DNA of 64,000 bases from Eledone cirrhosa (Eukaryota). How positions within the stretch are numbered: position 1 is the first letter of the stretch; every line of letters starts with the position of its first letter. The DNA lies in NCBI GenBank assembly GCA_964016885.1, contig OZ024741.1, positions 335,978,001 through 336,042,000 of the forward strand, in the 5' to 3' direction. Positions 388 through 49,088 of the stretch are shown here, one piece after another. The notes below the pieces were generated by a model. The model did no database searches. It worked only from the letters and a program-made list of their open reading frames with translations, and had not been told where the DNA came from. The translations under genes and the position numbers were made by a program.

Positions 388-859
388 AACCTACATGACC
401 ACGTTACTGTGTGGACTGGGGACTTGGGGCTGGGAATAGGGAGGTAGATCCAGGTGCATGTATGAAGTGGGGGTTCAGGCATGGCTGGAGTGTTAGGACA
501 TGGAAAATGCATGAAGGGATGGGATGTGGACGGTTGAAGGTTGTTAGGGTGTGGAGGTGTATGGAGGGATGAGGAGAAAAGTAGTATGAACAAGTTGTCT
601 TTGCCAGGCTGACTTTAAGATCTTAAGATTCTGGGCCTTGCTTCCAGGTCTGGAATTTCTTCTCTAGTTATATATATATGATATTGGAAATATCCACATA
701 CACTGAACATGGTAAATAGAATATAACAGTGATACTCAAAATTGGCAACACATATCAATACTTGTTAGTCATTCTCTTAACGCCAGATTTTGTCCAGTTT
801 ATCCAATATACACAATATATATATATATAGAGAGAGAGAGGAACTGTTGTAATTCCTGA

Positions 860-3297
860 AAGCTAACCTGCTGAAGGCAACAGATGAAATCTGTGGCTGG
901 AGCAGACCTATAGGGAGGAGGAGAGTAACTTGGTGGTGGAACAGTAAGGTGGAGGAGTCAATCAAGGCCAAAAAGCAGACTTGGAAAGAGAGAAGTAGAG
1001 AAGACTATCAAGTGCCCAGGAGGGAAGCTAGAAGACAAGTGTACTTCGCAAGAAGGGAAGGAGAGGAAAGAAAGTTCAAGCATGTGCGACAACGTGAGGA
1101 CCAAAAATGTGAGGTGTTCAGGATTGCTAGGCAATGTGTCACAGAAAACCGTGATATTGTCGGGGAGAAGTGTGTCCGTAATGATGATGATGTACTTGCC
1201 ATCACTGACGCTGATAAGAAGGTAGCTTGGAAGTGTCGCTATGAGAGGCTACTAAATGAGGAGAATAAGTGGGAAAAAGATAGTCTGTCCCAAATCAATC
1301 CAATAGAGGGACCAGCAGTGCAGGTTGAAGGTAGTATAATAAGTAAGGCGATCAAAGATATGAAGGCAGGCAAGGCGGCTGGGCCTTCGGAGATAGTTGC
1401 TGAAATGCTGAAAGCATCTGAGAGCATATGGTCACAGGATAGTAAACCAAGTCATATAGAATAGGGTCATACCAAAGAACTGGCGTAGCAGCATCATCAT
1501 TAACTGCTACAAGGGTAAAAGAGATGCCCTAGATAGGGGAAACTATAGAGGCATTAAATTAATTGACCAGGTCATAGAGGTCACATAAAAAGTTATTGCG
1601 CAACTAATCAGAGAGCGAATTGATCTAGATGAAATGCAGTTTGGATTTGTGTCAGGTAGAAGTACCACAGACGCTCTTTTCATTGTACGACAACTACAGG
1701 AGAAGTACCTAGCTAAAAGTAAACCCCTATACTTAGCTTTTGTTGACTTGGAAAAAGCCTTTGACAGAGTCCCCCGCTCCATTATCTGGTGGGCTCTCAG
1801 AAAACTAGGTGTTGATGAATGGCTTGTGAGAGCTATACAAGCCATGTATAACGAAACAGTCAGCAAGGTTAGAATTAACAACGAATATAGTGAAGAGTTT
1901 AGCATAAAAGTTGGTGCTCATCAGGGATCTGTCCTTAGCCCCCTCCTATTTATTATTGCCATTCAGGCTATAACAGAGGAGTTCAAGACCGGCTGCCCAT
2001 GGGAACTTCTCTATGCAGATGATCTAACGCTCATAGCTGAATCTATGGCTGAACTAGAGAAGAAATTCCAAACATGGAAGCATGTCCTAGAATCAAAAGG
2101 CCTTAAAATTAACTTGTCTAAGACTAAAGTTCTAGTATGTAGGAAGGAAAATAGAGCACTGGTCCCCTCTGGGAAATGGCCATGCTCAGTGTGTAGGAAA
2201 GGAGTAGGCAAAAACTCCATTTTATGTCCCAAATGCAAAGTATGGGTGCATAAAAGATGTAGTGGGATCACAGGTAAGCTAACTAAGAGCATAGATTTTA
2301 TATGTAGCAAGTGCCCACAGGATACTAGCTCCTTCCATTTCCCAGATGGTTCTATAGAAATAGTGGACACCTTCCGTTACCTGGGTGACAAAATCAGCAG
2401 TGGTGGAGGGTGCTCTGAAAGTACAGTAGCTAGAGTCAGAACAGGATGGAAAAAGTTCAGAGAGCTTATACCACTATTGGCCACTAAAGGTTTCTCTCTA
2501 AAAATGAAAGGCAGACTGTATGATGCCTGCATACTAACAGCAATGTTACATGGCAGTGAGACATGGGCATTGTGTGCAGAGGATCTATGCAGACTGGAGA
2601 GGAACGAAGCTTGCATGCTCCGTTGGATGTGTAATAGTAATATACGTGAACGACAAAGCATAAATGAACTAAGTGAGAAATTAGGAATAAGAAGGATCAG
2701 ATGCTGTTTACTCGAGAGAAGACTACGTTGGTATGGTCACGTGATGCGCATGAAAGACGACAGCCGTTTAAAAAAGTGCAGGCGATCAAAATAGATGGTA
2801 GCTATGGAGTAGGCAGACCCAGAAACACCTGGGACGATTTGATAAATTCCAACCTTACACACTTACACCTCTCCAAGACAATGTCACTGGATTGAGATCT
2901 TTGGCACTATGCAGTAATACAGAAGTCTTGCCTTGCCTAAGTACAAAGCAAAACCTACAGTCAGTAGGCACCTCTTAACCAAAAATACACCCCCATCCCA
3001 CTATCCCTACTCCCACCCCCATCTACACCACTCCTTTCAATGTAAAGTTATGTTGGTACCACAACATCCAGTCCTAAATAAATGAGGTCGTGTAGGTGTC
3101 ACGACAAAAAAAACACACAGTCCCCCCTCCCAGTCCACACTGTAAACGTGGTTGGTGTTAGGAAGGGCATCCAGCCATAGAAAGTCTGCCAAACAGTCCT
3201 ATACGAGCAAGACAACCAATCTTGCCTCAAGTGGGACAATTCCCGTCTAAACCCATGCTAGCGTGGAAGATAGACGTTAAACGATGATGATGATGAT
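860..3297 (+). mobile_element. RTE-clade LINE, 5'-truncated and frameshifted (family A)
   Basis: ORFs 949-1464 (KAAGPSEIVAEMLK) and 1634-2794 (QFGF, AFVDLEKAFDRV, HQGSVLSP, LYADD, LRWYGHVMRM), then GRPRNTW, a 3' UTR and a (GAT)n tail near 3283-3297. Confidence 0.95.
1634..2794 (+). CDS. LINE reverse transcriptase fragment with embedded PHD-type zinc finger
   Basis: 386-aa ORF with RT motifs and a C4HC3 pattern (CSVC...CPKC...H..C...CSKC). Confidence 0.9.
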   Translation: MQFGFVSGRSTTDALFIVRQLQEKYLAKSKPLYLAFVDLEKAFDRVPRSIIWWALRKLGVDEWLVRAIQAMYNETVSKVRINNEYSEEFSIKVGAHQGSVLSPLLFIIAIQAITEEFKTGCPWELLYADDLTLIAESMAELEKKFQTWKHVLESKGLKINLSKTKVLVCRKENRALVPSGKWPCSVCRKGVGKNSILCPKCKVWVHKRCSGITGKLTKSIDFICSKCPQDTSSFHFPDGSIEIVDTFRYLGDKISSGGGCSESTVARVRTGWKKFRELIPLLATKGFSLKMKGRLYDACILTAMLHGSETWALCAEDLCRLERNEACMLRWMCNSNIRERQSINELSEKLGIRRIRCCLLERRLRWYGHVMRMKDDSRLKKCRRSK

Positions 3298-5689: not shown

Positions 5690-5935
5690 GGCACAAAATC
5701 TGGGCAAGGTTGTTTGTGGAAGACCAGCAGTCACCCATGCATATCAGTCTCCCCTCTCCATTCCACCAATGTTGTCCAAGGGAAGAGCAATGGCTGATAC
5801 AGCTTGGCAACAGTGACGTTGCAACTCATATCTACAGCTGAATGAACTGGAGCAGCATGAAATAAAGTGTCTGGCCCAAGGATACAACACATTGCCTGGT
5901 CTTGGAATCAAACTCACAACCTGACAATTGTAAGC
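5690..5935 (-). mobile_element. Second tRNA-derived SINE family (CORE/V-like TCCTTGGGCAAGACACTT block)
   Basis: Shares the tRNA-like head and GTGTATCCTTGGGCCAGACACTTTATTTC block with the + strand copy at 60296-60420. Confidence 0.6.
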
Positions 5936-5950
5936 CCAACACGTACACAT

Positions 5951-5983
<33 letters not shown>

Positions 5984-5986
5984 GTT

Positions 5987-6186
5987 NNNNNNNNNNNNNN
6001 NNNNNNNNNNNNNNNNNNNNNNNNNNNNNNNNNNNNNNNNNNNNNNNNNNNNNNNNNNNNNNNNNNNNNNNNNNNNNNNNNNNNNNNNNNNNNNNNNNNN
6101 NNNNNNNNNNNNNNNNNNNNNNNNNNNNNNNNNNNNNNNNNNNNNNNNNNNNNNNNNNNNNNNNNNNNNNNNNNNNNNNNNNNNNN
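5987..6186. other. Assembly gap (200 N)
   Basis: Run of N characters. Confidence 1.
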
Positions 6187-8628: not shown

Positions 8629-8902
8629 TTTAAAGACACATTCTGTGTGAAAAATAACAATTTAGGGTCGTCATACACACTGCAATGAGGAAGTTAAAAT
8701 GACTTAATAATACTTATGTTGTGCTAGGAGTTGTGACTGGTAGATAATATCAGCAATGGATAGACCAATGGGCACAATGTTTCCTTGGTTCGATCTGAGG
8801 AGTTCCACTTCACTTGGTAAGTGAAAGGGATCTGGGATCTTGTCGATTCGTATCAATTATACAATAATCAATATGTGGTGCTGAGAAGAAGATATTAGTC
8901 AA

Positions 8903-10533
8903 ATGACAGGGAAAGGCACCACTGATGCGCTCTTCCTTGTGAGGCAATTACAGGAAAAGTACCTAGCTAAAAGTAAGCCACTCTACTTGGCATTTGTCGA
9001 CCTTGAGAAAGCCTTTGACAGAGTTCCACGTGCAGTAATCTGGTGGGCTCTTAGAAAACTAGGAGTAGATGAATGGCTTGTGAAAGCGGTACAAGCCATG
9101 TATAGGGGAGCAGTCAGCAAAGTTAGGATTGGCAATGAGTATAGCGAGGAATTTAGCGTACAGGTTGGGGTCCACCAGGGCTCTGTTCTTAGCCCTCTCC
9201 TGTTCATCATAGTCCTGCAGGCAATAACGGAGGAGTTTAAGACCGGATGCCCATGGGAACTCCTGTATGCTGATGACCTCGCACTCATAGCTGAATCTAT
9301 GGTAGAACTAGAGAATAAATTCCAAACCTGGAAGCAGGGACTAGAGAGAAAGGGCCTCAAAGTCAACATGACAAAGACTAAGGTCCTTATAAGTAGACGA
9401 GAAAACAGAACCCAGATCCCCTCAGGGAAATGGCCTTGCTCAGTATGTAGGAAAGGTGTAGGTAGGAACTCCATTCTTTGCCCCAAATGCAAACAATGGG
9501 TACACAAGAGATGTAGCGGGATCTCAGGAAGCTTAATTAAGAATGTAGGATTCACATGCAGCAGCTGTGCTGAAACAGCAAGCAAACAGCCACAGGTAAC
9601 AAGTACCACCAATCTCTGGGAGGGCCCTGTAGAAACAGTAGACAGCTTCTGCTACCTAGGTGACCGAATTAGCAACGGAGGTGGGTGCTCAGAAAGTACA
9701 ATAACTAGGGTAAGAACGGGATGGAAGAAGTTTAGGGAACTACTACCACTGCTAGCTGCAAAAGGCTTCTCCCTCAGAATGAAAGGCAGACTGTATGATG
9801 CGTGTATCCGAACAGCGATGTTGCATGGTAGTGAGACCTGGGCGCTGAAGGTGGAAGACCTACGTAGATTAGAGAGAAACGAAGCCTGCATGCTCCGATG
9901 GATGTGTAACAGTAATATACGTGAACGACAAAGCATAAATGAATTGAGAGAGAGACTGAGCATAAGAGGAATCAAATGCTGCGTGCAGGAGAGGCGGTTA
10001 CGCTGGTATGGACATGTGATGCGTATGAAGGATGACAGCTGCATAAAAAGGTGCAGAGCACTAGAAGTTGATGGAAACCGCGGAGTGGGGAGACCCAAGA
10101 TGACTTGGGATGAGGTGATAAAAGCCGACCTTACCCAACTACACCTCTCAAAGTCAATGACACACGACCGTGACTTCTGGCGTCACGCAGTAATACAGGG
10201 TACCCGACCTCCCATGGGTACATGCTGAAGCATATAAACAATATGCCCCCCCCCCCCCCCACCGCAAGGTGGTCGTGGAGGTGCCACGGCAAAAAAGCAC
10301 CCAGCCCACACTGTAAAGTGGACGTGTAGGCGCCACGAAAAAGCACCCAGCACTCACTGTAAATGAGGTTGGTGTTAGGAAGGGCATCCAGCTGTAGAAA
10401 TCAAGCCAGATCAGTTCCTGTATGAGCAAGGCATGGTCAGCCGACCAGACACTGCCCACAACAGGACAACCCGTCTAACCCATGCTAGCGTGGAAGAACG
10501 GACGTAAAACGGTGATGATGATGATGATGATGA
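8903..10533 (+). mobile_element. RTE LINE (family B), 5'-truncated, with uninterrupted 441-aa RT/PHD/C-terminal ORF (8903-10228)
   Basis: TTDALF, AFVDLEKAFDRV, HQGSVLSP, LYADD, PHD cysteines, LRWYGHVMRM, GRPKMTW; 3' UTR and (GAT)n tail. Confidence 0.95.
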
Positions 10534-14847: not shown

Positions 14848-15823
14848 ATAATAATAATAATGAAATTATTGTGTACAGTCCTCAGGTGCACTACAACTCG
14901 TCAAAGGTGCATGTATAGTACATAGAGTAATATACAAATGTCAGGAAAGTGAATAGTGTATGAGTCATGATATACATGTGTACGTGTGTATGGAGGGGGA
15001 ATATTAGGCGTAGTGTTGGCGAATCTCAAGAAGCATGGAGGTTGTAAAGGATGCAGTGTCTCGACAGCTAACAACTGATGCAGGTAGTTTGTTCCATGCT
15101 TCAGCAACTCTGAGCATGAAAAAGTGTTTCTGAAAGTCATGGGAGCTGTGCTGTTTTCTGCCCACGTGTGTTAGACACATGGAAATCAAAAAGGTACTCA
15201 GGGTTGTTGTTGGTAATTTTGTGGGTATTTACCAAGTCAGTTGCCAGATGTCGGAACTTCAATGTATCCATGCCCAGGGAAGCAAGGTGTTCAGAGTATG
15301 GTAGATGCCTGATGGAGGGTATTCGCTTGGTTGCACGTCTCTGAACAGTTTCCAGGCAGTCAATGTTCTGAGCAAGATAGGGGTTCCAGACTGGTGATCA
15401 AATTCTAAGTGTGACCGCACTATAGCTATATACAACTTTAAATAGATAGCTGGAGAGCGACTGACAAAGGTCTTGCTGAGTGATGCTAAGACACCCTCAG
15501 CCTTCTTGACAATTTTTGAGACGTGCTTCGTCCAACGCAAATCGCTGCTGACCGTAATGCCCAGGTCACATTTACAAGAAGACTTCTTGATATTAGTGTT
15601 GTGGAGGTAGTATGTGGACGCTGGGTTTTTACTCCCAAAATGCATGGTGGTACACTTGTCCACAGCTAGCTTGAGTTGCCAGTCTGTGATCCATTGTTGC
15701 ATTGTGTCCAGGTCAGATTGCAGGCAAGATCTAGAGTGTTCAGGATCGGTCCTTTTTATCCCAAGGTACAGCTTGATGTCATCTGCATATTTTAGTACTG
15801 TGGCATTCTTTAAGTTGGCATCT
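14848..15823 (-). mobile_element. CR1/L2-group LINE, 3' portion
   Basis: KYADDIKLY, WQLKLAVDKC, DLGITVSSDLRW, RSHLEF, RVAEAWNKLP; tail ATAATTTCATTATTATT. Confidence 0.9.
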
Positions 15824-16339
15824 ATAAAGGATAGGGTTCCTATTTAAATTAAAATCTTCCAACAAAATTTTATATAAGAACCATATATAAAGTTAATATC
15901 TTAGTAATGAAATAATTAATAAATTTAGTAAATCCATCAAAATTCTTCATTAATTGAAATACAAGGTTCCTGTTTAAATTAAAACCGTCCAACATCATTT
16001 TATATATGGACTATATGTTAAGTTACTATCTTAAAAATGAAATAATTAATAATTAATAGAATCAAAATAAAGATAGAAGCATAGCCATAGCATTGACTAC
16101 ACAAGGGCTTATATAATTAATAATTTTAATAAATTAAGTAATTGAAATAGTGTATTTCATCAGAAATATGGTCACAAAAGTGTTAAAACAATATAACTAA
16201 CTAGCAGGATTTTCAAAATATCTCGAAGTAGTTAACATTACAAGTTTCCATAAACTTCAATACAAGAGGATACAACACTGAAACGGAAAACAAAAGTACA
16301 TATGTATTATACACTTATATGGATGCTCACTTGTACACA

Positions 16340-19249: not shown

Positions 19250-20970
19250 TACATTGTAGAGCTAGCCTAGAGTGCTAAATACCTAGTCACACAATATAGA
19301 GCCATCCTAGAGTGCTACATCCTCAGTCACACATTGTAGAGCCAGCCTAGAGTGCTACCTACCCAGGTAAACAGTATAGAGCTAGCCTAGAGTGCTACCT
19401 ACCCAGGTACACATTGTAGAGCTAGCCTAGAGTGCTACCTACCCAGGTACACAGTATAGAGCTAGCTTAGAGTGCTACCTACCCAGGTACACATTGTAGA
19501 GCTAGCCTAGAGTGCTACCTCCCCAGGTAAACAGTATTGAGCTAGCCTAGAGTGCTACCTCTCCAGGTACACAGTATAGAGCTAGCCTAGAGTGCTACCT
19601 ACACAGGTACACATTGTAGAGCTAGCCTAGAGTGCTACCTACCCAGGTAAACAGTATAGAGCTAGCCTAGAGTGCTACCTCCCCAGGTACACAGTATAGA
19701 GCTAGCCTAGAGTGCTACCTACACAGGTACACATTGTAGAGCTAGCCTAGAGTGCTACCTACCCAGGTAAACAGTATAGAGCTAGCCTAGAGTGCTACCT
19801 CTCCAGGTACACAGTATAGAGCTAGCCTAGAGTGCTACCTACACAGGTACACATTGTAGAGCTAGCCTAGAGTGCTACCTACCCAGGTACACAGTATAGA
19901 GCTAGCCTAGAGTGCTACCTCCCCAGGTACACAGTATAGAGCTAGCCTAGAGTGCTACCTACCCAGGTACACATTGTAGAGCTAGCCTAGAGTGCTACCT
20001 ACCCAGGTAAACAGTATAGAGCTAGCCTAGAGTGATACCTCCCCAGGTACACAGTATAGAGCTAGCCTAGAGTGCTACCTACACAGGTACACATTGTAGA
20101 GCTAGCCTAGAGTGCTACCTTTCCAGGTACACAGTATAGAGCTAGCCTAGAGTGCTACCTTTCCAGGCACACAGTATAGAGCTAGCCTAGAGTGCTACCT
20201 ACCCAGGTAAACAGTATAGAGCTAGCCTAGAGTGCTACCTACCCAGGTACACAGTATAGAGCTAGCCTAGAGTGCTACCTCCCCAGGTACACAGTATAGA
20301 GCTAGCCTAGAGTGCTACCTCTCCAGGTACACAGTATAGAGCTAGCCTAGAGTGCTACCTACCCAGGTAAACAGTATAGAGCTAGCCTAGAGTGCTACCT
20401 ACCCAGGTACACAGTATAGAGCTAGCCTAGAGTGCTACCTCCCCAGGTACACAGTATAGAGCTAGCCTAGAGTGCTACCTCTCCAGGTACACAGTATAGA
20501 GCTAGCCTAGAGTGCTACCTACCCAGGTAAACAGTATAGAGCTAGCCTAGAGTGCTACCTACCCAGGTACACAGTATAGAGCTAGCCTAGAGTGCTACCT
20601 CCCCAGGTACACAGTATAGAGCTAGCCTAGAGTGCTACCTCTCCAGGTACACAGTATAGAGCTAGCCTAGAGTGCTACCTACCCAGGTACACATTGTAGA
20701 GCTAGCCTAGAGTGCTACCTCCCCAGGTACACAGTATAGAGTCAGCTTAGAGTGCTAAATGCCTTGGTACATATTGTCGAGCTTGCCTAGAATACTAAAT
20801 TCTCAGGCGCAGATGGTAAAGCTAGCCTAGAGTGCCGAATATCTAAGCACCCCGTGTAGAGATAGCCTAGGGTGCCAAATACTTAGGCCCACATTGTAGA
20901 GTTAGCCTAGGGCACTAAATACCCAGGAACACATTGTAAAACTAACCAGAGTGCTAAATACTGAGGTACT
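19250..20970. repeat. 40-bp satellite (GCTAGCCTAGAGTGCTACCTACCCAGGTACACAGTATAGA)n, about 42 units
   Basis: Exact 40-bp period, homogeneous centre, degenerate edges. Confidence 0.97.
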
Positions 20971-26165: not shown

Positions 26166-27830
26166 TAATAATAATAATAATGAAATTATTGTGTACAGTG
26201 CTCAGGTGCACTACAACTCATCAAAGGTGCATGTATAGTACATAGAATAATGTACAAATGTCAGGAAAATGAACAGTGTATGAGTCATGATATAATAATA
26301 ATGAAATATTGTGTACAGTGCCCAGGTGCACCACAACTCATCAAAAAGTGCATGTACAGTACATAGGGCAATGCACAAACATCAGTAAAATGAACAGTGC
26401 ACGAGTTATGATACACACGTGTGCATGTGTATAGAAGGGGTACATCAGGTGTAGCCTTGGCGTATTTCGGGAAGCATGAGTGTCTTAAAGGATGCAGTGT
26501 CTCGGCAGTTTGTTCCATGCTTCAGCAACTCTGAGCGTGAAAAAATGTCTACGAAAGTCATGGGAGCTGTGCTGTTTTCTGATCTTGTAGGCATGTCCAT
26601 GTGTGTTAGACACATGGAGATCAAAAAGGTGCTCAGGGTTGCAATTGGCGAGATGGTTAATAACTTTGTGGGTATTCACCAAGTCCATTGCCAGACGTCG
26701 GAGCTTCAATGAATCCATGCCCAGGGAAGCAAGGCATTCAGAGTATGGTAGGTGTCTGATGGAGGGTATGCGCTTGGTTGCATGTCTCTGAACAGTTTCC
26801 AGGAGGTCAATGTTCTGAGCAAGATAGGGGTTCCAGACTGATGATGCGAATTCCAAGTGTGGTCGTACCATAGCTGTATACAGTTTTAAATAGATGGCTG
26901 GAGAGCAGCTAACAAAGGTCTTGCTGAGTGATGCCAAGATACCCTCGGCCTTCTTGACAATCTTAAAGACATGCTTTGTCCAACGCAAATCGCTGCTGAC
27001 AGTAATGCCCAGGTCACGTTCACAAGAGGACTTATTGATATCAGTGTTGTGGAGGGAGTATGTGGACGCTGGATTTTTCCTTCCAAAATGCATGGTGGTA
27101 CACTTGTCCACAGCCAGCTTCAGTTGCCAGTCTGTGATCCATTGCTGCATTGTGTCCAGGTCTGATTGTAGGAAAGAGTTGTAAATTTTAGGATCAGTCC
27201 TTTTGATTTCAAGGTACAGCTTGATGTCATCTGCATATTTCAGTACCGTGGCATTCTGTAAGTTGGCATCTATGTCATTAATATATGCCACAAACAAAAG
27301 GGGACCAAGAACAGATCCCTATGGTACACCAGATGACATCTCATATGATGAAGAATGCTGTCCTAGAACCGTGACTACTTCTTTTCGGCTGAGAATGAAG
27401 GATTTCAACCAGTCGAAAAGATCATCCCTCACACCCATTGCAGAGTTTTGCCATAAGTCTTTTGTGTGGCACAGAATTAAAAGCCTTAGCAAAGTCAAGG
27501 TAAACAGCATCCACTCATGAGCCGCTGTCAGTGATCCGGGTGATGTCTTCAAGGAACTCGATAAGCTGATCACAGCAGCTGGAGTTAGGGATAAATTCAA
27601 ACTGTGAGGGCCGGATGAGGCTGTGAGAGCTCCAGAAGTTCCAAAGTGTTTCTCTGACACAGGATTCCATCAGTTTGGCCATACAGCTAGTAAGACTGAC
27701 TGGACGATAGTTGACAGGTTACATGCGGTTGCCCTTTTTGAACAGGGGAATGACACTGGCAGTTTTCCACTGCTCCGGAGTAGCACCATTGTTGAGACAG
27801 TATTGAAAGAGTCAGGATCCTGACAGCTGA
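26166..27830 (-). mobile_element. CR1/L2-group LINE (longest copy in window) with a duplicated 3' end
   Basis: 270-aa RT ORF at 26485-27297 plus upstream frameshifted RT segments; the 3' tail appears twice (26166-26290 and 26295 onward). Confidence 0.92.
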
Positions 27831-41232: not shown

Positions 41233-42669
41233 AATATATATATAGGAATTGTTTTAAATGGATGGTTTTCTTTCATAGAACCAGGGATGATTTTGACATG
41301 ATTGATTTTGTTTGATAAAACCAGGGTTTGTTTTAGTTGGGTTCATAACAAAAGGGTTAAGAAACAAGTATCTTTTTTGTTATTCTTCATATGACCAATG
41401 AAAAACATTTATTTTATTCTATATTAACCCTTTAGCATTTAAACTGGCTGTATCCAGCCAGAATTCTCTCACCTCTTTCTTTTCAAACTGGCCATAACTA
41501 GCCACTCATACTGATTTTAAGGTATTGTTCTCAAAATAAAAAACATCAAAATCTCATAGATATTGTGAAATAATTGTGTGAGGTAAAACCTTTACAGTGA
41601 AAATACAATAATAAATATAGAGTAAAGGTTAAGTAATTAAAACATAGGCTGTGTTTCCTAGTCTTGTATAGTCATGGTTTCATTTCCTATTCATCCTAAC
41701 CCACAAGACAGAAAAAAAACATTTCCAATCTGGCTTGCCTCCCAAAAGCATTAACTAACCCTTCTCTGATATCTTTCAATTAATTACAATCTCCAGATTT
41801 CATATCTCTCTTCTATGGTGATATTAACTGATTTATATAGTGGCTGTTGAGTATATTTATTTACAACACTTATTCTAGGTAATTCATATTTGGCAGTTTT
41901 TCTTCCATTGTCATTTTCGTGTTATTTTGATGGATACTAACAGTTGGAAATGAAGCTTTTGAGGGTTGGCAGGGGGTAGGTGGGCTGGGATCAGAGGGTT
42001 AGAATTAAATCATTTGTGAGGACATCACTTCTGACATTTGTGGTACACATGCTTCATAGCATGACCCCATTAATCTCACACTATGACATTTCTCATAAAC
42101 CCTCAAACAGCAGGTATTTGGTTTTATTGCTGTTTGTTATTAGTGGTGGTCATGGTTGATGGGATTGTATGGCGTTGGGTTTGTTTTAAGTTGGTTTTAT
42201 TTGTGTTTGTTTATCTGTCTGTCTCAATTTCATTGATTCTCATCACATTCTGTTATTTGTTACTGTAAGCTCTCTCTCTCTCTCTGAGAGTTGGGACCTC
42301 TGTCCATTCTGACCATGAGAAATTCTTCTAATTGCTTGATCACTGTAACAGCACGCTTGTGAAATTAACGTCCAAGTGGCTGAGCATTCTACATACACGT
42401 GTCCCTTAACGTAGTCTCCAGGGAGCTTCAGCATGAAACAGTGTGTGACAAGGCTGACCTTTTGAATTATAGGTAAAACTAATTTTTTGCCAGCTGAGTC
42501 AACTGGAACAATCTGAAATAAAGTATGTTGCCCAAAGCTAGGAATTGAACTCATATGCCAGTTACCTTCACTGTAAACTCTACTATATTTTGTTCTTAAG
42601 CATGACATGAAAGATATCACATGATTGTTACTATACAGGGTGTTTCAAATAATTTGATATCAATAGCCT

Positions 42670-42982
42670 TAAAGGAAAAGAATGTTTGTCGATGAATGGA
42701 CAATACATCGTTTCTCTTTGTATGAATAAATGACTCCAGAAAGGGGGTGAACAATCAAAATTAACGATCCTTTATTAAATACATTTAATAAATTACCTAC
42801 AACCAAAACAGTGTAATATATTCTACGGTGCAGGAATAAGCGAATCCTTTCTCGTCTGTTCGTGTCCGCGGTTCGTGAGAAAGCTCCTGGTGTGTGACCG
42901 GATGTATCTTGCCCCCCGCTCTCTGAAAGATCATTAATGGGAGGCAACTGCTAGTTGCTAAGCGACCATCTCAGTCACTACA
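42670..42982 (-). repeat. 3' LTR (313 bp)
   Basis: Minus strand TGTAGTGACTGAG...TTTTCCTTTA; aligns to 45950-46293; preceded by a weak PPT-like GAGGTGAA. Confidence 0.95.
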
Positions 42983-43099
42983 TTCACCTCGGAGCAGATT
43001 TTTTGTCGAAAAATCGTTAACGATGAAGCGAAGGACCCACAAGGTAGTTAACAAAATGTAGAAGCATGTATCAACAAATTATGAAAGAGAAAAAAAAAA

Positions 43100-44180
43100 A
43101 TAGGTTCATGCCTGCAAGTTTGGTGTCTGCAACAGTCGCCTCTTCTGCTAATACTTCATCTGGAACAAAGTGGTGTTTGTATGATTTGGACCGGAAGGCG
43201 ACTCTGAAAGCAAGCGCATCCATGATTGCGCCTTCCACATGTCCTGGCTCTATGTTCTGAATGAACCGTTTGTCTTTGTCTAGACACCCTATCATACCAA
43301 AGAAAGTGTGCAAGTACGGGTTTGACCCTGCGGAAAATACACATTTGTTAATTAGTCCCAGGGACTTTTGGTAAGGGAAAATCCCTGTATCTGATGCTCC
43401 TGCGCTTAAGGATTTCAGCACTCTCATGGTCTCATTGACTCCAGCTTCATTGACCACCAAACAAACCAAATCAGTTATGGTTAGATTGAGCGTGTCTCTG
43501 AAGTGGTCAAGGACTTCTATGATATGGTCCCCCTTCTCAACAGCGATAGATCATGAGTGTTATAATTATAAAGGAAATAATCTATCGCTGCCATCACTTG
43601 GAAAACTTGATCGTTCCTGACTATATGGCTCAGGGCACCGTTGAGGAGCATGTCCTGATCGTATCTGTATGGGTGCGTCATACGATGATTATTGAAGGCC
43701 TTGATGTTTTGCTTATAATCCCCCACTTCCAGACCGGTGGCCGCATTCTCCACCTTGTAAAGAGTGACTATATACATTAGCCCGTGGTGGTGATTTTGGG
43801 TAGAGGTTGTTGCGGTTGGTTTGGGGAAGCTGGCATCTTCGGTGATGTTGAAAAAATCAGCAGGGGTAACTGACTCTTTCTGTCTGATAAAGTCATAGTT
43901 TTGGAGATCAGTATTTATGTCAAATTTAAGGTAGGACTGGCAGTATTTGATCATGAAATGTAGGACGTTTCGGGAGGATCTCCTGAGTGTTGGCTTTTGT
44001 CAAAATAAAATCATGTGCTGCTTTGACATCCCCTTCATAGAAAATGGTTATCTGTTGGGGCTGGAACAATTCAGAGCTGAAGACATCGAAGTCTTTAGTT
44101 GTTTTGCTGAGACTGAATTCCAGCTTCTCGCGACCAGATGCGGTTACCGCCCGCACAGTAGAGTTGGTAGAACTTGACAT
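43100..44180 (-). pseudogene. Endogenous rhabdovirus-like (Mononegavirales) nucleoprotein N, two frameshifts, probably 3'-truncated
   Basis: ORFs 43926-44180, 43517-43954 and 43071-43469 join into about 360 aa. NDQVFQVMAAIDYFLYNYNTHDLSLLRRGTIS, EVLDHFRDTLNLTITDLVCLVVNEAGVNETMRVL and IFPYQKSLGLINKCVFSAGSNPYLHTFFGMIG align in order with vesiculovirus N as recalled (NDSNYTKIVAAVDMFF...H...RYGTI; ATFGHLCKITGMSTEDVTTWILNREVADEMVQM; YMPYLIDFGLSSKSPYSSVKNPAFHFWG). Confidence 0.85.
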
Positions 44181-44224
44181 GATGTTTCAAAGGATTATAC
44201 AGCAAACAGTAAAAAACAATAAAT

Positions 44225-44703
44225 CCGAGTTAGTAATTCGTAACTTTCCCTGCGTCAACTGAGGGAATGAATGTAACAGGCTTTGATACTGGTTGCCCAC
44301 TTCAGCCAAGAAAAAGGAAGGGCTGTTTCAGCATCAAAAAGGCGTTGTCTGCGGATGTCTACCGACAAGGAAAAATGGTGTAGAAAATCCGCTCCCAAAA
44401 ATGGCGGATGGCAAGTCGGCGATAGTAAACTTCCACTTCAATTCACGACGCAAATTTTTTTAACCGAAGAGGAAGCGAAATTTGCCCGTACGTTCGAATG
44501 GCCGTGTGGTTGACTGCTCGTAAATTTATATTTGATTCAGATGGGGTTTTTTTGAGATAACTGACTGGCCAAATACTCAGCGACGCGCCAGTATCGACAA
44601 GGAAAAATTTTTTCGACCGCAGGTCGTATACGAAAAGATGGCGGTTCGGTCGATTTTCCCAGAGTTCACTAACCGCCCCTAGTGGCTCTGCTTTGCGTTT
44701 TCC
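44225..44703 (-). pseudogene. Retrotransposon aspartic protease (start of pol, truncated before RT)
   Basis: LFVYDLRSKKFFLVDTGASLSIWP (DTG at 44587-44595), LRAVNHTAIRTYG, WKFTIADL, ILGADFL-like motif across frameshifts; GGAAAAC candidate gag-pol slippery site near 44697-44703. Confidence 0.9.
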
Positions 44704-45484
44704 GATCTCTTGTAATTACAGGGCGTGCGACAACGTTGTGCCCTACTGCCGAAGTTAGCATGATACCAACAAAACGAGAATTATTGTTGTCTGCGTTGTA
44801 GTGCTGGCGATGAATAGAAGACAGCGGCGAACGGTACTCGTAGCGGTTTCGAGGAATAGCAGACGGAGGCGAACGGTACCTCAAACGTTGAGAAGGCTCC
44901 CTGTGTTGTACGGTCAAATCCTCCACTTTTTGGGTGAGCGCATCGATCATCTCCAACAGTTTGCTGTCGGCCACAGAAGAAGAAGCCACACAAGGATTAT
45001 GCCGACTGCTGTTAGAGTCCACCTCTAGTATTCTATCCGCGGTTGCGGCAAGTTGATCTAACGATTAGCTCTCCAAATTATTGACCAAGACCATTTGCGC
45101 ACTTGGCGGCAAACGAGAGAAAAATAGTTGTTTGAGGAATGGGGTGTCCATCCCCTGGGAGTCGCTCAACTCCCGCAGATGTCGCAAATAGGAGCTTGGC
45201 GTCCTGTCACCCATTTGCGCATCATCTAACAATTCCCGAAAACGACTTTCCGCTCACTTGGTATTCCTCCGAATAATTTCCCCTTTCAACGAGCCATAAG
45301 TAACGTCTGCGGCTAAATTGGTCACCACATCCTTCACGGAAGATGCCAACGACACAGGCAAGCCACTAACTAGTACCTTCAGTGTATGCTGTTCTTTGGT
45401 TTTGGTTAAATCAAAATAGCATTCAAGCTGCAAAAACCATAATTTGATGTCGCCTGCGAAGGACGGCAAATGATGTGGATTCAT
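44679..45484 (-). pseudogene. gag: gag of CsRn1/Kabuki-type gypsy element
   Basis: LPSFAGDIKLWFLQLECYF...RFRELLDDAQMGDRTPSSYLRHLREL...LDQLAATADRI...CWYHANFGSRAQRCRTPC (C-X2-H-X9-C-X3-C); two in-frame stops and one frameshift. Confidence 0.9.
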
Positions 45485-45930
45485 GATTGCCGAAGAATCT
45501 CCCAGGACGAACTATGTCTTTGAAGCAGCCACTCGACCAAAAGGCCACACTGGAACTCCGAAATCCGTTCACGCGAATTCAATCGAAATCAGTCGAAGAA
45601 TCCAAGATGGCCGGTTGAGAAAAGGTGAAGACGCCGTCACGTGGCACGATGTAGCCAATCAGATTGCTTGGATTGAAGGAGATACACTGTGCGCGGGAAA
45701 ACCGCACAAGGAAGAAGACACGCAGAATAGCGGGAAAATGTCGGCCATTTAAAAAATTATCATGAGGAAATGACGGTGAAAAATCCGGAAAGAAAAAAAA
45801 ATGTTTACAGTGTGAACAGCGAACAGAGTTTAGAAATCATCTAATTTTTTTTTTGGAAAAGGTTTGGATTCAAACCAAAGAAAAATAAAAAAAAATTTTT
45901 TTCTTTTTTTTTAGTATCCGCGTATTGGAA

Positions 45931-45948
45931 TCACGTCGTCGGTCACCA
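45931..45948 (-). promoter_or_regulatory. Primer-binding site complementary to the tRNA-Trp 3' end
   Basis: TGGTGACCGACGACGTGA(TTC) lies 1 nt inside the 5' LTR; the animal tRNA-Trp 3' end is ...GAATCACGTCGGGGTCACCA (near match). Confidence 0.85.
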
Positions 45949-45949
45949 A

Positions 45950-46293
45950 TAAAGGAAAAGAATGTTTGTCGATGAATGGACAATACATCGTTTCTCTTTG
46001 TATGAATAAATGACTCCAGAATGGGGGTGAACAATAAAAAATTAACGATCCTTTATTAAATACGACATTTAATAAATTACCTACAACGTCAATTTAAACA
46101 TACCTTGTGGGTTAATAAAAAAGTGTAATATATTCTCCGGTGCAGGAATAAGCGAATCCTTTCTCGTCTGTTCGTGTCCGCGGTTCATGAGAAAGCTCCT
46201 GGTGTGTGACCGGATGATCTTGAACCCCGCTCTCTGAAAGATCATTAAGGGGAGGCAACTGCTAGTTGCTAAGCGACCATCTCAGTCACTGCA
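45950..46293 (-). repeat. 5' LTR (344 bp)
   Basis: Matches the 3' LTR apart from about 8-9 substitutions, small indels and a ~30-bp extra segment near 46088-46122. Confidence 0.95.
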
Positions 46294-46336
46294 GCCTGTT
46301 CCAAGGTTGTCACATGAAAATATATATTGTCAATTA

Positions 46337-47525: not shown

Positions 47526-48222
47526 GTGAGTAGAGAAGTCGGGGTAGTGGTTTAAGTGCTGGAAGTGGTATTAGTGACAAGGGTTTAAGGAGTGGTGATA
47601 GTGGTAGTGGTTGTAAGGGGTCGTGTAGTGGTGGTGGTGGTAGTAGTAGTAGTGGTAGTGGTTAGGACTCAGGAAATGGCAGTAATAGTAAGGGCTCAGG
47701 TAGTAGTATTAGTGATAAGGGCTCAGGAAGTGGTGACAGTAGTAGCAGTAGTGGTGGTAAGGGCCCAGGATACCAAGCATTTCCACTACTAAGGGTTTAA
47801 ATGAGAGAAGAACCACCACTTTGTCTGATAGATCAATTAATGGTTTTTGATTTGGGTACAAGGGTCCAATAATTGGAGGCAGGGGTGCAAGAAGGGAAAG
47901 TTGATTAAATTGACTCTAGTGTATCACTGGTACCTTTTTATCGACTCTGTAAGGATGAAAGACAAAGCTAACCGTGGCAGGATTTGAACTCAGAATGTAA
48001 AGGGATGTAACCATATGCCCCAAAGTATTTTGCCTGGCAATCTAATGGCATTATCAATCAACCAGCCTACTATATTAATTAATAAATATAATCATATCTC
48101 GAATTTGGTGAAATTGGTTATTCTTCACATATAGTTATTATAAGCTATACAACTCTTAGATTTAGCAGGACTAAAGGTATATAACCCTTAAATTTAACAG
48201 GGCTGAAGCTATACAACCCTTA

Positions 48223-49088
48223 ACAGACTGGCAACTGAAGCTGGCTGTGGACAAGTGTACCACCATGCATTTTGGGAGGAAAAATCCAGCGTCCACATAC
48301 TCCCTCCACAACACTGATATCAAGAAATCCTGTTGTGAACGTGACCTGGGCATTACTGTCAGCAGCGATTTGCGTTGGACAAAGCACATCTCTAAAATTG
48401 TCAAGAAGGCTGAGGGTGTCTTGGCATCACTCAGCAAGACCTTTGTTAGCCGCTCTCCAGCCATCTATTTAAAGCTGTATACAGCTATGGTATGACCACA
48501 CTTGGAATTCACATCATCAGTCTGGAACCCCTATCTTGCTCAGAACATTGACCTCCTGGAAACTGTTCAGAGATGTGCAACCAAACGCATACTCTCCATC
48601 ATACACCTACCATACTTTGAACGCCCTGCTTCCCTGGGCATGGATTCATTGAAGCTCCAACGTCTGGCAATGAACTTGGTAAACACCCACAAAGTTATTA
48701 ACCATCTCCCCAACAACAACCCTGAGCACCTTTTTGATCTCCATGTGTCTAACACATGTAGACATGCCTACAAAATCAGAAAAAAGCACAGCTCCCATAA
48801 CTTTCGTAAACTTTTTTTCACGCTCAGAGTTGCTGAAGCATGGAACAAACTGCCTGCGTCAGTTGTTACCTGCCGAGACACTGCATCCTTTAAAACCCTC
48901 ATGCTTCCCGAAATACACCAAAACTACACCTGATGTACCCCTTCCATACACATACACACATGTGTATATCATGACTCATGCACTGTTCATTTTCCTGACG
49001 TTTGTACATTACCCTATGTACTATACATACACTTTTTGATGAATTGTAGTGCACCTGAGCACTGTACACAATATTTCATTATTATTAA
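48223..49088 (+). mobile_element. CR1/L2-group LINE 3' portion
   Basis: DKCTTMHFG, DLGITVSSDLRW, LEFTSSVWNPY, RVAEAWNKLP, tail ATATTTCATTATTATT. Confidence 0.9.

What the first reader, a model, noticed from the sequence alone, without database searches (positions are those of the whole stretch)
43100..44180. Molecular fossil of a divergent negative-strand RNA virus that reached this animal's germline
The reconstructed ~360-aa N keeps the order and spacing of rhabdovirus N blocks. The usual GLSxKSPYSS motif reads GLINKCVFSA, which suggests a distant lineage. The lesions can be located: a probable 1-nt loss near 43970 (QEILP/NVLHFMIKY), and a frameshifting deletion near 43515 that removes roughly the SRFKDCAA-equivalent segment. 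The start codon is retained in the context TTTGAAACATCATG; an AACA gene-start-like signal there is speculative. Cephalopod rhabdoviruses are little described as far as I know.
Basis: partly seen in the sequence, partly recalled or inferred. Interest (0 to 1): 0.75.

Follow-up and report, generated by a model that had tools for sequence, protein, structure and literature searches.

The report
Rhabdovirus gene inside octopus retrotransposon
This is a broken copy of a rhabdovirus coat-protein gene sitting inside a jumping gene of what is probably an octopus genome, likely copied in by that jumping gene's own enzyme, and it is one of about eleven such copies that likely record repeated germline infections by a poorly known virus lineage.

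Summary
Confirmed, and richer than reported. The rhabdovirus N remnant (44231-43111, minus strand) is cargo of a CsRn1-like Ty3/gypsy retrotransposon: LTR-PBS-gag-protease-[N]-3'UTR-LTR, with a 4-bp target duplication. N stands where about 2.9 kb of RT/RNaseH/integrase lies in intact relatives. Both junctions show 5-6 nt microhomology, which points to template switching onto N mRNA. The genome holds N-like sequence at 11 loci, 7 abutting LTR elements, plus L fragments at 4 loci. The closest copies differ mostly at silent sites (dN/dS 0.04-0.07), so they are likely separate captures of circulating strains. Their nearest relatives are predicted proteins of Octopus bimaculoides and Argonauta hians; named rhabdovirus N proteins are about 21-28% identical. 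The capture route is known from Aedes. Cephalopod rhabdoviruses appear in one 2023 paper title (text not held); I found no paper on these insertions. Expression and function are untested. The scan's earlier notes held no match.

The parts
46294..46297 (.). Target-site duplication, 5' side (GCCT on +, AGGC on -)
   Evidence: flanks
45950..46293 (-). 5' LTR, 344 nt, TG...TA
45929..45948 (-). Primer-binding site TGGTGACC..., tRNA-Trp type (assignment from recall and from PMC2582038 for the CsRn1 clade)
44700..45484 (-). Broken gag: DUF7041 domain (E 6e-9) and CX2HX9CX3C (CHCC) motif at 44771-44718
44223..44665 (-). Protease (LVDTGAS) and protease-RT linker, broken; homology to intact relatives stops at 44223
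44221..44231 (-). Likely viral gene-start motif AACTCGGATTT; contains the 5' junction overlap CGGAT (44227-44223) shared with retrotransposon relatives
44181..44231 (-). Viral N 5' UTR, 51 nt, matching sibling L019
43972..44180 (-). N, N-terminal frame from the ATG to the first frame break
43530..43971 (-). N, middle frame (Rhabdo_ncap 89-210), ends at the second frame break
43111..43529 (-). N, C-terminal frame (Rhabdo_ncap 223-329, GLINKCVFSA), truncated at the 3' junction
43111..43116 (-). 3' junction microhomology TGCAGG shared by sibling N copies and retrotransposon 3' UTR
42983..43118 (-). Retrotransposon 3' UTR with T-run and a weak purine tract before the LTR
42670..42982 (-). 3' LTR, 313 nt; 304 of 312 aligned bases equal the 5' LTR, plus indels
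42666..42669 (.). Target-site duplication, 3' side (GCCT on +)

Best explanation
The stretch is a dead, non-coding copy of a rhabdovirus N gene carried inside a CsRn1-like Ty3/gypsy retrotransposon, and it likely arose when that element's reverse transcriptase switched templates onto a viral N mRNA in an infected germline cell. Inferred order: minus-strand synthesis copied the 3' LTR and about 135 nt of 3' UTR, jumped at a 6-nt match onto N mRNA some 65-70 codons before its stop, ran to the mRNA's 5' end at the gene-start motif, jumped back to retrotransposon RNA in the protease-RT linker where 7 of 9 bases match that motif, and the hybrid was integrated with enzymes supplied in trans. It then decayed (2 frame breaks, 3 small in-frame gaps). 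The same process likely happened at least 7 separate times in this genome with different strains of one octopod-associated virus lineage. Shown: anatomy, junctions, copy family, silent-site excess. Inferred: mRNA template, order of jumps, germline infection, independence of events.
For: LTR pair, 4-bp TSD, PBS, gag with CHCC motif and protease flank N. 9 of 9 fetched relatives of the element align to the window up to 44223-44224 and then continue into pol; 3 of them plus L018 were seen to resume at 43114-43118 only where 3' UTR was matched (L018, L038, L042). About 2.9 kb (L038) is replaced by 1.1 kb of virus. Junction overlaps of 5 and 6 nt; chance for random position pairs 0.005 and 0.0015. 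The N-to-next-gene junction in L020/L021 reads ATCAGAAAAAAAA-CT-AACTC(G/A)ATT, and the window insert starts at AACTCGGATT. Window vs L016: 40 of 53 differences at third positions, dN/dS 0.07; vs L018 54 of 73, 0.074; L016 vs L018 0.04. Siblings use other junctions, the other orientation and three LTR families. An L-gene remnant abuts the same retrotransposon family at C3.
Against: The overlaps are read from sibling copies (69-90% identical), not from the true parents; L038 and L042 differ inside the 3' overlap. Tassetto et al. 2019 concluded that virus-LTR recombination in Aedes cells looks sequence-independent (passages). The 5' overlap alone could explain a switch at the gene start without a run-off from an mRNA end, so an antigenome template is not excluded. 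4 of the 11 N loci (L019, L022, L023, L075) showed no LTR piece of the three families beside them in my scans. No live virus was found. The host name is inferred.
Confidence: 0.85

Rival explanations
1. One ancient N insertion was domesticated by the host or by the retrotransposons and then multiplied, with selection on the protein acting inside the octopus genome.
For: Several copies keep long open frames (393, 373, 323, 320 codons). L016 and L017 share both junctions yet differ at 20 of 31 sites in third positions (p 4e-4). Relatives exist in Octopus bimaculoides and Argonauta hians.
Against: Most copies, the window's included, are truncated or frame-broken; open frames mostly lack the N start and lie antisense to their carriers; junctions, orientation and carrier family differ; silent sites are saturated between groups while carriers' LTR pairs are 97-100% alike; gene-end/start signals, a second gene and L remnants mark a viral source.
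Confidence: 0.07
2. The hybrid formed at the DNA level: free viral cDNA was patched into a break in an already integrated retrotransposon by microhomology-mediated repair, or an antigenome rather than mRNA was the template.
For: Microhomology plus deletion is also typical of end-joining repair (established knowledge); only one such junction pair was analysed in depth.
Against: The insert starts exactly at the gene-start motif; 7 of 11 N loci and the largest L locus abut LTR elements, as co-packaging predicts.
Confidence: 0.07
3. Contamination or misassembly joined viral reads to a repeat.
For: The only runs holding the stretch are one sample of one study.
Against: An RNA virus gene with decay, inside matched LTRs and TSD on a 416-Mb contig; run contigs bridge both junctions; 11 loci.
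Confidence: 0.01

Closest known systems
Rhabdovirus-derived EVEs associated with Ty3/gypsy elements in Aedes aegypti (Whitfield et al., bioRxiv 10.1101/127498; passages read)
   Same: Mostly N-derived, next to Ty3/gypsy LTR elements, L rarer.
   Different: Host is a mollusc; the carrier here is whole enough (both LTRs, TSD, both junctions) to read the event; no G remnant was found (a blank that shows no absence); piRNA output untested; the window is not an evident one-strand cluster.
Virus-LTR retrotransposon hybrid vDNA and the CFAV EVE in Ty3/gypsy (Tassetto et al. 2019, PMC6797480; passages read); antiviral EVE piRNAs (Suzuki et al. 2020, PMC7522710; abstract only)
   Same: Copy-choice recombination during reverse transcription; viral piece flanked by LTR and gag.
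   Different: They report no sequence dependence, whereas both junctions here overlap by 5-6 nt; antiviral function is shown there and untested here.
CsRn1 clade of Ty3/gypsy (PwRn1, AgCR; PMC2582038; passages read)
   Same: tRNA-Trp-type PBS, 4-bp TSD, CX2HX9CX3C gag motif, TG..(T/A)A LTR ends.
   Different: This copy has lost RT, RNase H and integrase and carries viral cargo; no RT tree was built.
Rhabdoviridae N and L, nearest Alpharhabdovirinae (VSV, sigmaviruses, ledanteviruses, almendraviruses)
   Same: PF00945 N; gene-end/CT/gene-start junction of VSV type (VSV consensus recalled); an L remnant in the genome is 45-52% identical to these L proteins and scores 460 bits on VSV L against 44 or less on non-rhabdovirus L.
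   Different: N is only about 21-32% identical to non-octopod hits and sits in its own clade; the L remnant has a 2.6 changes/site branch and joins no sampled genus.
Cephalopod rhabdovirus sequences of Rey-Campos et al. 2023 (Front Mar Sci 10:1209103; title only, in a reference list; text not held)
   Same: Rhabdoviruses in cephalopods.
   Different: Cannot be compared; they may be the live relatives, or partly transcripts of insertions like these.

Membership tests
Non-retroviral endogenous viral element | Homology to a protein of a non-retroviral RNA virus | tested here: met
   Pfam PF00945; PDB N proteins E 4e-9 for sibling L016
Non-retroviral endogenous viral element | Joined to host chromosomal DNA | tested here: met
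   LTRs, TSD, repeat-rich flanks on C2; junction-bridging contigs
Non-retroviral endogenous viral element | Inherited in the population (germline, other individuals) | tested here: inconclusive
   Holders are one sample; RAD-seq runs of other samples cover too little
Rhabdoviridae | N of the Rhabdo_ncap family | tested here: met
Rhabdoviridae | Stop-start gene junction signals | tested here: met
   gene end A-run, CT, gene start in L020/L021; start motif in window
Rhabdoviridae | L-protein placement in the family | tested here: met
   L071 frames: all 120 listed hits are full-length L proteins, the named ones rhabdoviruses or unclassified mononegaviruses; VSV and rabies-type L far above other families. 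That this L belongs to the same virus as the N is inferred.
Rhabdoviridae | N-P-M-G-L gene order | tested here: inconclusive
   Only N followed by an unidentified, P-positioned gene (L020/L021; no Pfam or Atlas hit); no G found
Alpharhabdovirinae or a named genus | Monophyly with members in an L tree | tested here: inconclusive
   Long branch, quick tree, no outgroup from other subfamilies
CsRn1 clade Ty3/gypsy (carrier) | CX2HX9CX3C gag motif | tested here: met
   definition
CsRn1 clade Ty3/gypsy (carrier) | 4-bp TSD | tested here: met
   also L039-L041 flanks
CsRn1 clade Ty3/gypsy (carrier) | tRNA-Trp PBS | tested here: inconclusive
   TGGTGACC present; match to tRNA-Trp is recalled, host tRNA not compared
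CsRn1 clade Ty3/gypsy (carrier) | RT phylogeny | not tested
   PR-RT-RH-IN order in relatives shown; no tree
piRNA-producing antiviral EVE | Antisense piRNAs from the locus that cut viral RNA | not testable with these tools
   needs gonad small-RNA data

The most novel reading that the evidence does not exclude
Octopods have kept a running genomic archive of one rhabdovirus lineage: CsRn1-like retrotransposons capture its N gene again and again, mostly antisense to their own promoter, and existing hybrids are refreshed by recombining with newly infecting strains (L016/L017 share both junctions but differ mainly at silent sites in the inner N), giving cephalopods a heritable, updatable small-RNA antiviral memory like that of Aedes.
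Probability: 0.2. Interest if true: 0.85.

Novelty: new member of a known kind. Interest (0 to 1): 0.62.

Why it matters
It shows at base resolution how a cytoplasmic RNA virus gene enters a mollusc germline, extending the LTR-capture route known from mosquitoes to cephalopods. The set of copies (60-96% protein identity, plus relatives in two other octopod genera and L remnants) indicates a diverse, long-associated rhabdovirus lineage that reaches the germline, gives baits to find the living viruses in a group now entering aquaculture, offers dated calibration points through LTR pairs, warns that rhabdovirus hits in cephalopod transcriptomes may be endogenous, and makes EVE-based immunity outside arthropods directly testable.

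Tried and rejected
Word-index protein search with sibling L016 found nothing among 2792 candidates; the index-free search did. IMG/VR scan: no relative. Glycoprotein PF00974 in the own genome: 0 matches, controls blank too, so no evidence of absence. The gene after N in L021 has no Pfam or Atlas hit and only 2 matches in the genome. Sequencing runs: no RNA holder listed. Second read lay on the LTR-flank junction gave one contig with only 30 bases on the LTR side, short of the 31 needed. No tRNA in the window. A paper for an octopus substitution rate was not held, so the age rests on recall. Earlier scan notes: nothing by sequence or words; 8 of 290 notes shown by place were on other subjects. 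Rejected: the AACA next to the ATG as gene start; the T-run as viral poly(A); the tify and other weak Pfam hits as chance; orientation bias (5 antisense events to 1 sense) as significant, the count being too small.

Full report
Observation. The minus strand at 44180-43111 holds three frames of a rhabdovirus-type N. Pfam Rhabdo_ncap matches two of the three, in order (E 0.0017 and 3.5e-6), and GLINKCVFSA aligns with the conserved G(I/L)SxKSPYS block of solved N proteins. Against the open-frame sibling L016 the window copy has 5 gaps, 2 frame-changing, near 43970 and 43525. The copy lacks roughly the last 65-70 codons seen in L017 and L018.

Carrier. The N remnant lies inside an LTR retrotransposon on the same strand: 5' LTR 46293-45950, 3' LTR 42982-42670, 304 of 312 aligned bases identical plus indels, a 4-bp duplication on both sides, a PBS, gag with DUF7041 and a CX2HX9CX3C motif, and a protease. 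These match the features given for the CsRn1 clade in PMC2582038 (passages); no RT tree was made. The family is common: 53 matches from 40 scored of 396 candidates. Of 8 relatives fetched, 4 have LTR pairs 97.0-98.8% alike spanning about 5.9-6.4 kb; RT, RNase H and integrase domains were shown in L035, L039 and L024. All 9 relatives compared (these 8 and L024) align to the window up to 44223-44224; retrotransposon 3' UTR resumes at 43114-43118 in the three loci that matched there (L018, L038, L042). So 1.1 kb of virus replaces about 2.9 kb (L038). The T-run near 43090 is retrotransposon UTR.

Junctions. At the 3' join TGCAGG is shared by sibling N copies, the window and the L018 3' UTR; L038 and L042 differ slightly there. 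At the 5' join CGGAT is shared by 8 of 9 relatives' linker (one has a neighbouring change) as printed, the window and the viral UTR of L019. Random position pairs reach 6 and 5 nt with frequency 0.0015 and 0.005. L020 and L021 keep a viral gene junction, ATCAGAAAAAAAA-CT-AACTC(G/A)ATT, of the VSV pattern (pattern recalled); the window's viral part starts at AACTCGGATT (44231), 51 nt before the ATG, and L019 has AACACGGATT at the same place. Run contigs bridge both joins at depth 6-9 while retrotransposon parts are at hundreds; the runs are one sample, possibly the assembly's own.

Family. Three searches gave N-like sequence at 11 places, the window included (lower bounds). Seven abut pieces of three LTR families: window, L016, L017, L018, L020, L021, L024; L019, L022, L023 and L075 showed none. 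In the other six N is antisense to the carrier. None of the listed matches shares the window's 5' junction. Window vs L016: 40 of 53 differences at third positions, dS 0.24, dN 0.017; vs L018: 54 of 73, dS 0.36, dN 0.027; silent sites are saturated to L019, L020, L023, L024. Such divergence likely arose in replicating viruses, giving at least 7 captures. Two hybrids occur at two loci each with different flanks (L016/L017, L020/L021), and L024 is a five-unit tandem array. L020/L021 differ neutrally (7 of 15 at third positions), but L016/L017 do not (20 of 31, p 4e-4) and are identical over the last 172 nt: unexplained, and the basis of the refresh idea. L-gene remnants occur at 4 places; the largest, about 4.3 kb and broken, lies antisense between pieces of the window's retrotransposon family.

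Placement. Of 182 hits (150 listed) the best five are 43-60% identical: P0001 is annotated from Octopus bimaculoides, P0002 and P0004 from Argonauta hians, P0003 and P0016 are unnamed (10 of 150 looked up). In a FastTree of 9 natural frames and 138 of the 150 hits (12 short ones dropped) these form one clade, support 99, stem 1.19; its sister is unreliable. One L frame is 45-52% identical to 120 listed L proteins, mostly alpharhabdoviruses, and in a quick unrooted tree with 68 of them has a 2.6 branch in no genus. The ICTV 2026 profile (whole text) names molluscs as hosts only for Gammarhabdovirinae. Linking L to N is inference. A parasite such as a flatworm as the virus's main host is not excluded (PMC9241645, passages), but capture by the host's own retrotransposon requires viral RNA in host germline cells. 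The host is inferred to be an octopus from these relatives and an earlier scan note.

Age. LTR divergence is 2.6% (8 substitutions), like intact relatives. With a rate recalled from the octopus genome paper (about 3.6e-9 per site per year; not held) this is a few million years; treat as rough.

Literature. Capture of RNA-virus pieces by Ty3/gypsy elements is known in Aedes (abstract of PMC7522710). Searches for octopus or cephalopod with EVE or rhabdovirus terms (listings) showed no paper on these insertions; two returned 0. The library lacks most subscription papers. A reference list revealed Rey-Campos et al. 2023 on rhabdovirus in cephalopod metatranscriptomes (title only; not held), so the host range is not new and overlap with that work, including its supplements, is unknown. 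A marine invertebrate virome preprint had no rhabdovirus mention.

Verdict. Real; a new member of a known kind, unusually well preserved as a record of mechanism and part of an apparently undescribed family of captures. Function untested. Interest 0.62.

Noticed in passing
L071:5297-9900 (G000:C3:130.160-130.165 Mb): About 4.3 kb broken rhabdovirus L gene, antisense between an LTR piece and the pol of the same gypsy family; further L pieces on C23, C27 (two inverted copies) and C3:37.5 Mb.
   Followed up: partly
L016:4188-5891 and L017:4133-5855: Same LTR-N hybrid at two chromosomes; shared junctions but silent-site excess in N and no differences in the last 172 nt; L017's 132-bp repeats are 100% identical, so it is young.
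   Followed up: partly
L018:5735-5750: The viral gene-end A-run is fused to an A-run inside the LTR, a second case of junction microhomology.
   Followed up: partly
L021:5743-7050 and L020:3859-4285: Gene junction followed by about 1.3 kb of a second viral gene, P by position, with no database match.
   Followed up: partly
L076/L024 (G000:C28:117.475-117.485 Mb): 1796-bp tandem unit carrying the 5' half of N, five copies at 98-99.8% identity, next to nested LTR elements.
   Followed up: partly
L019:4290-5603: N copy spanning gene start to a terminal A-run, without an LTR found; may be a whole-mRNA copy made by a LINE.
   Followed up: no
L023:2993-5533: N fragment between 172-bp direct repeats beside a Helitron-like ORF cluster (recognised from recall).
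   Followed up: no
window 853-2791, 8885-10225, 15262-15843, 26488-27318, 48175-48933: LINE reverse-transcriptase fragments on both strands; no one-strand bias in the window.
   Followed up: no
window about 5750-6150: Run of N.
   Followed up: no
window 19251-20960: 40-bp minisatellite, about 43 copies.
   Followed up: no
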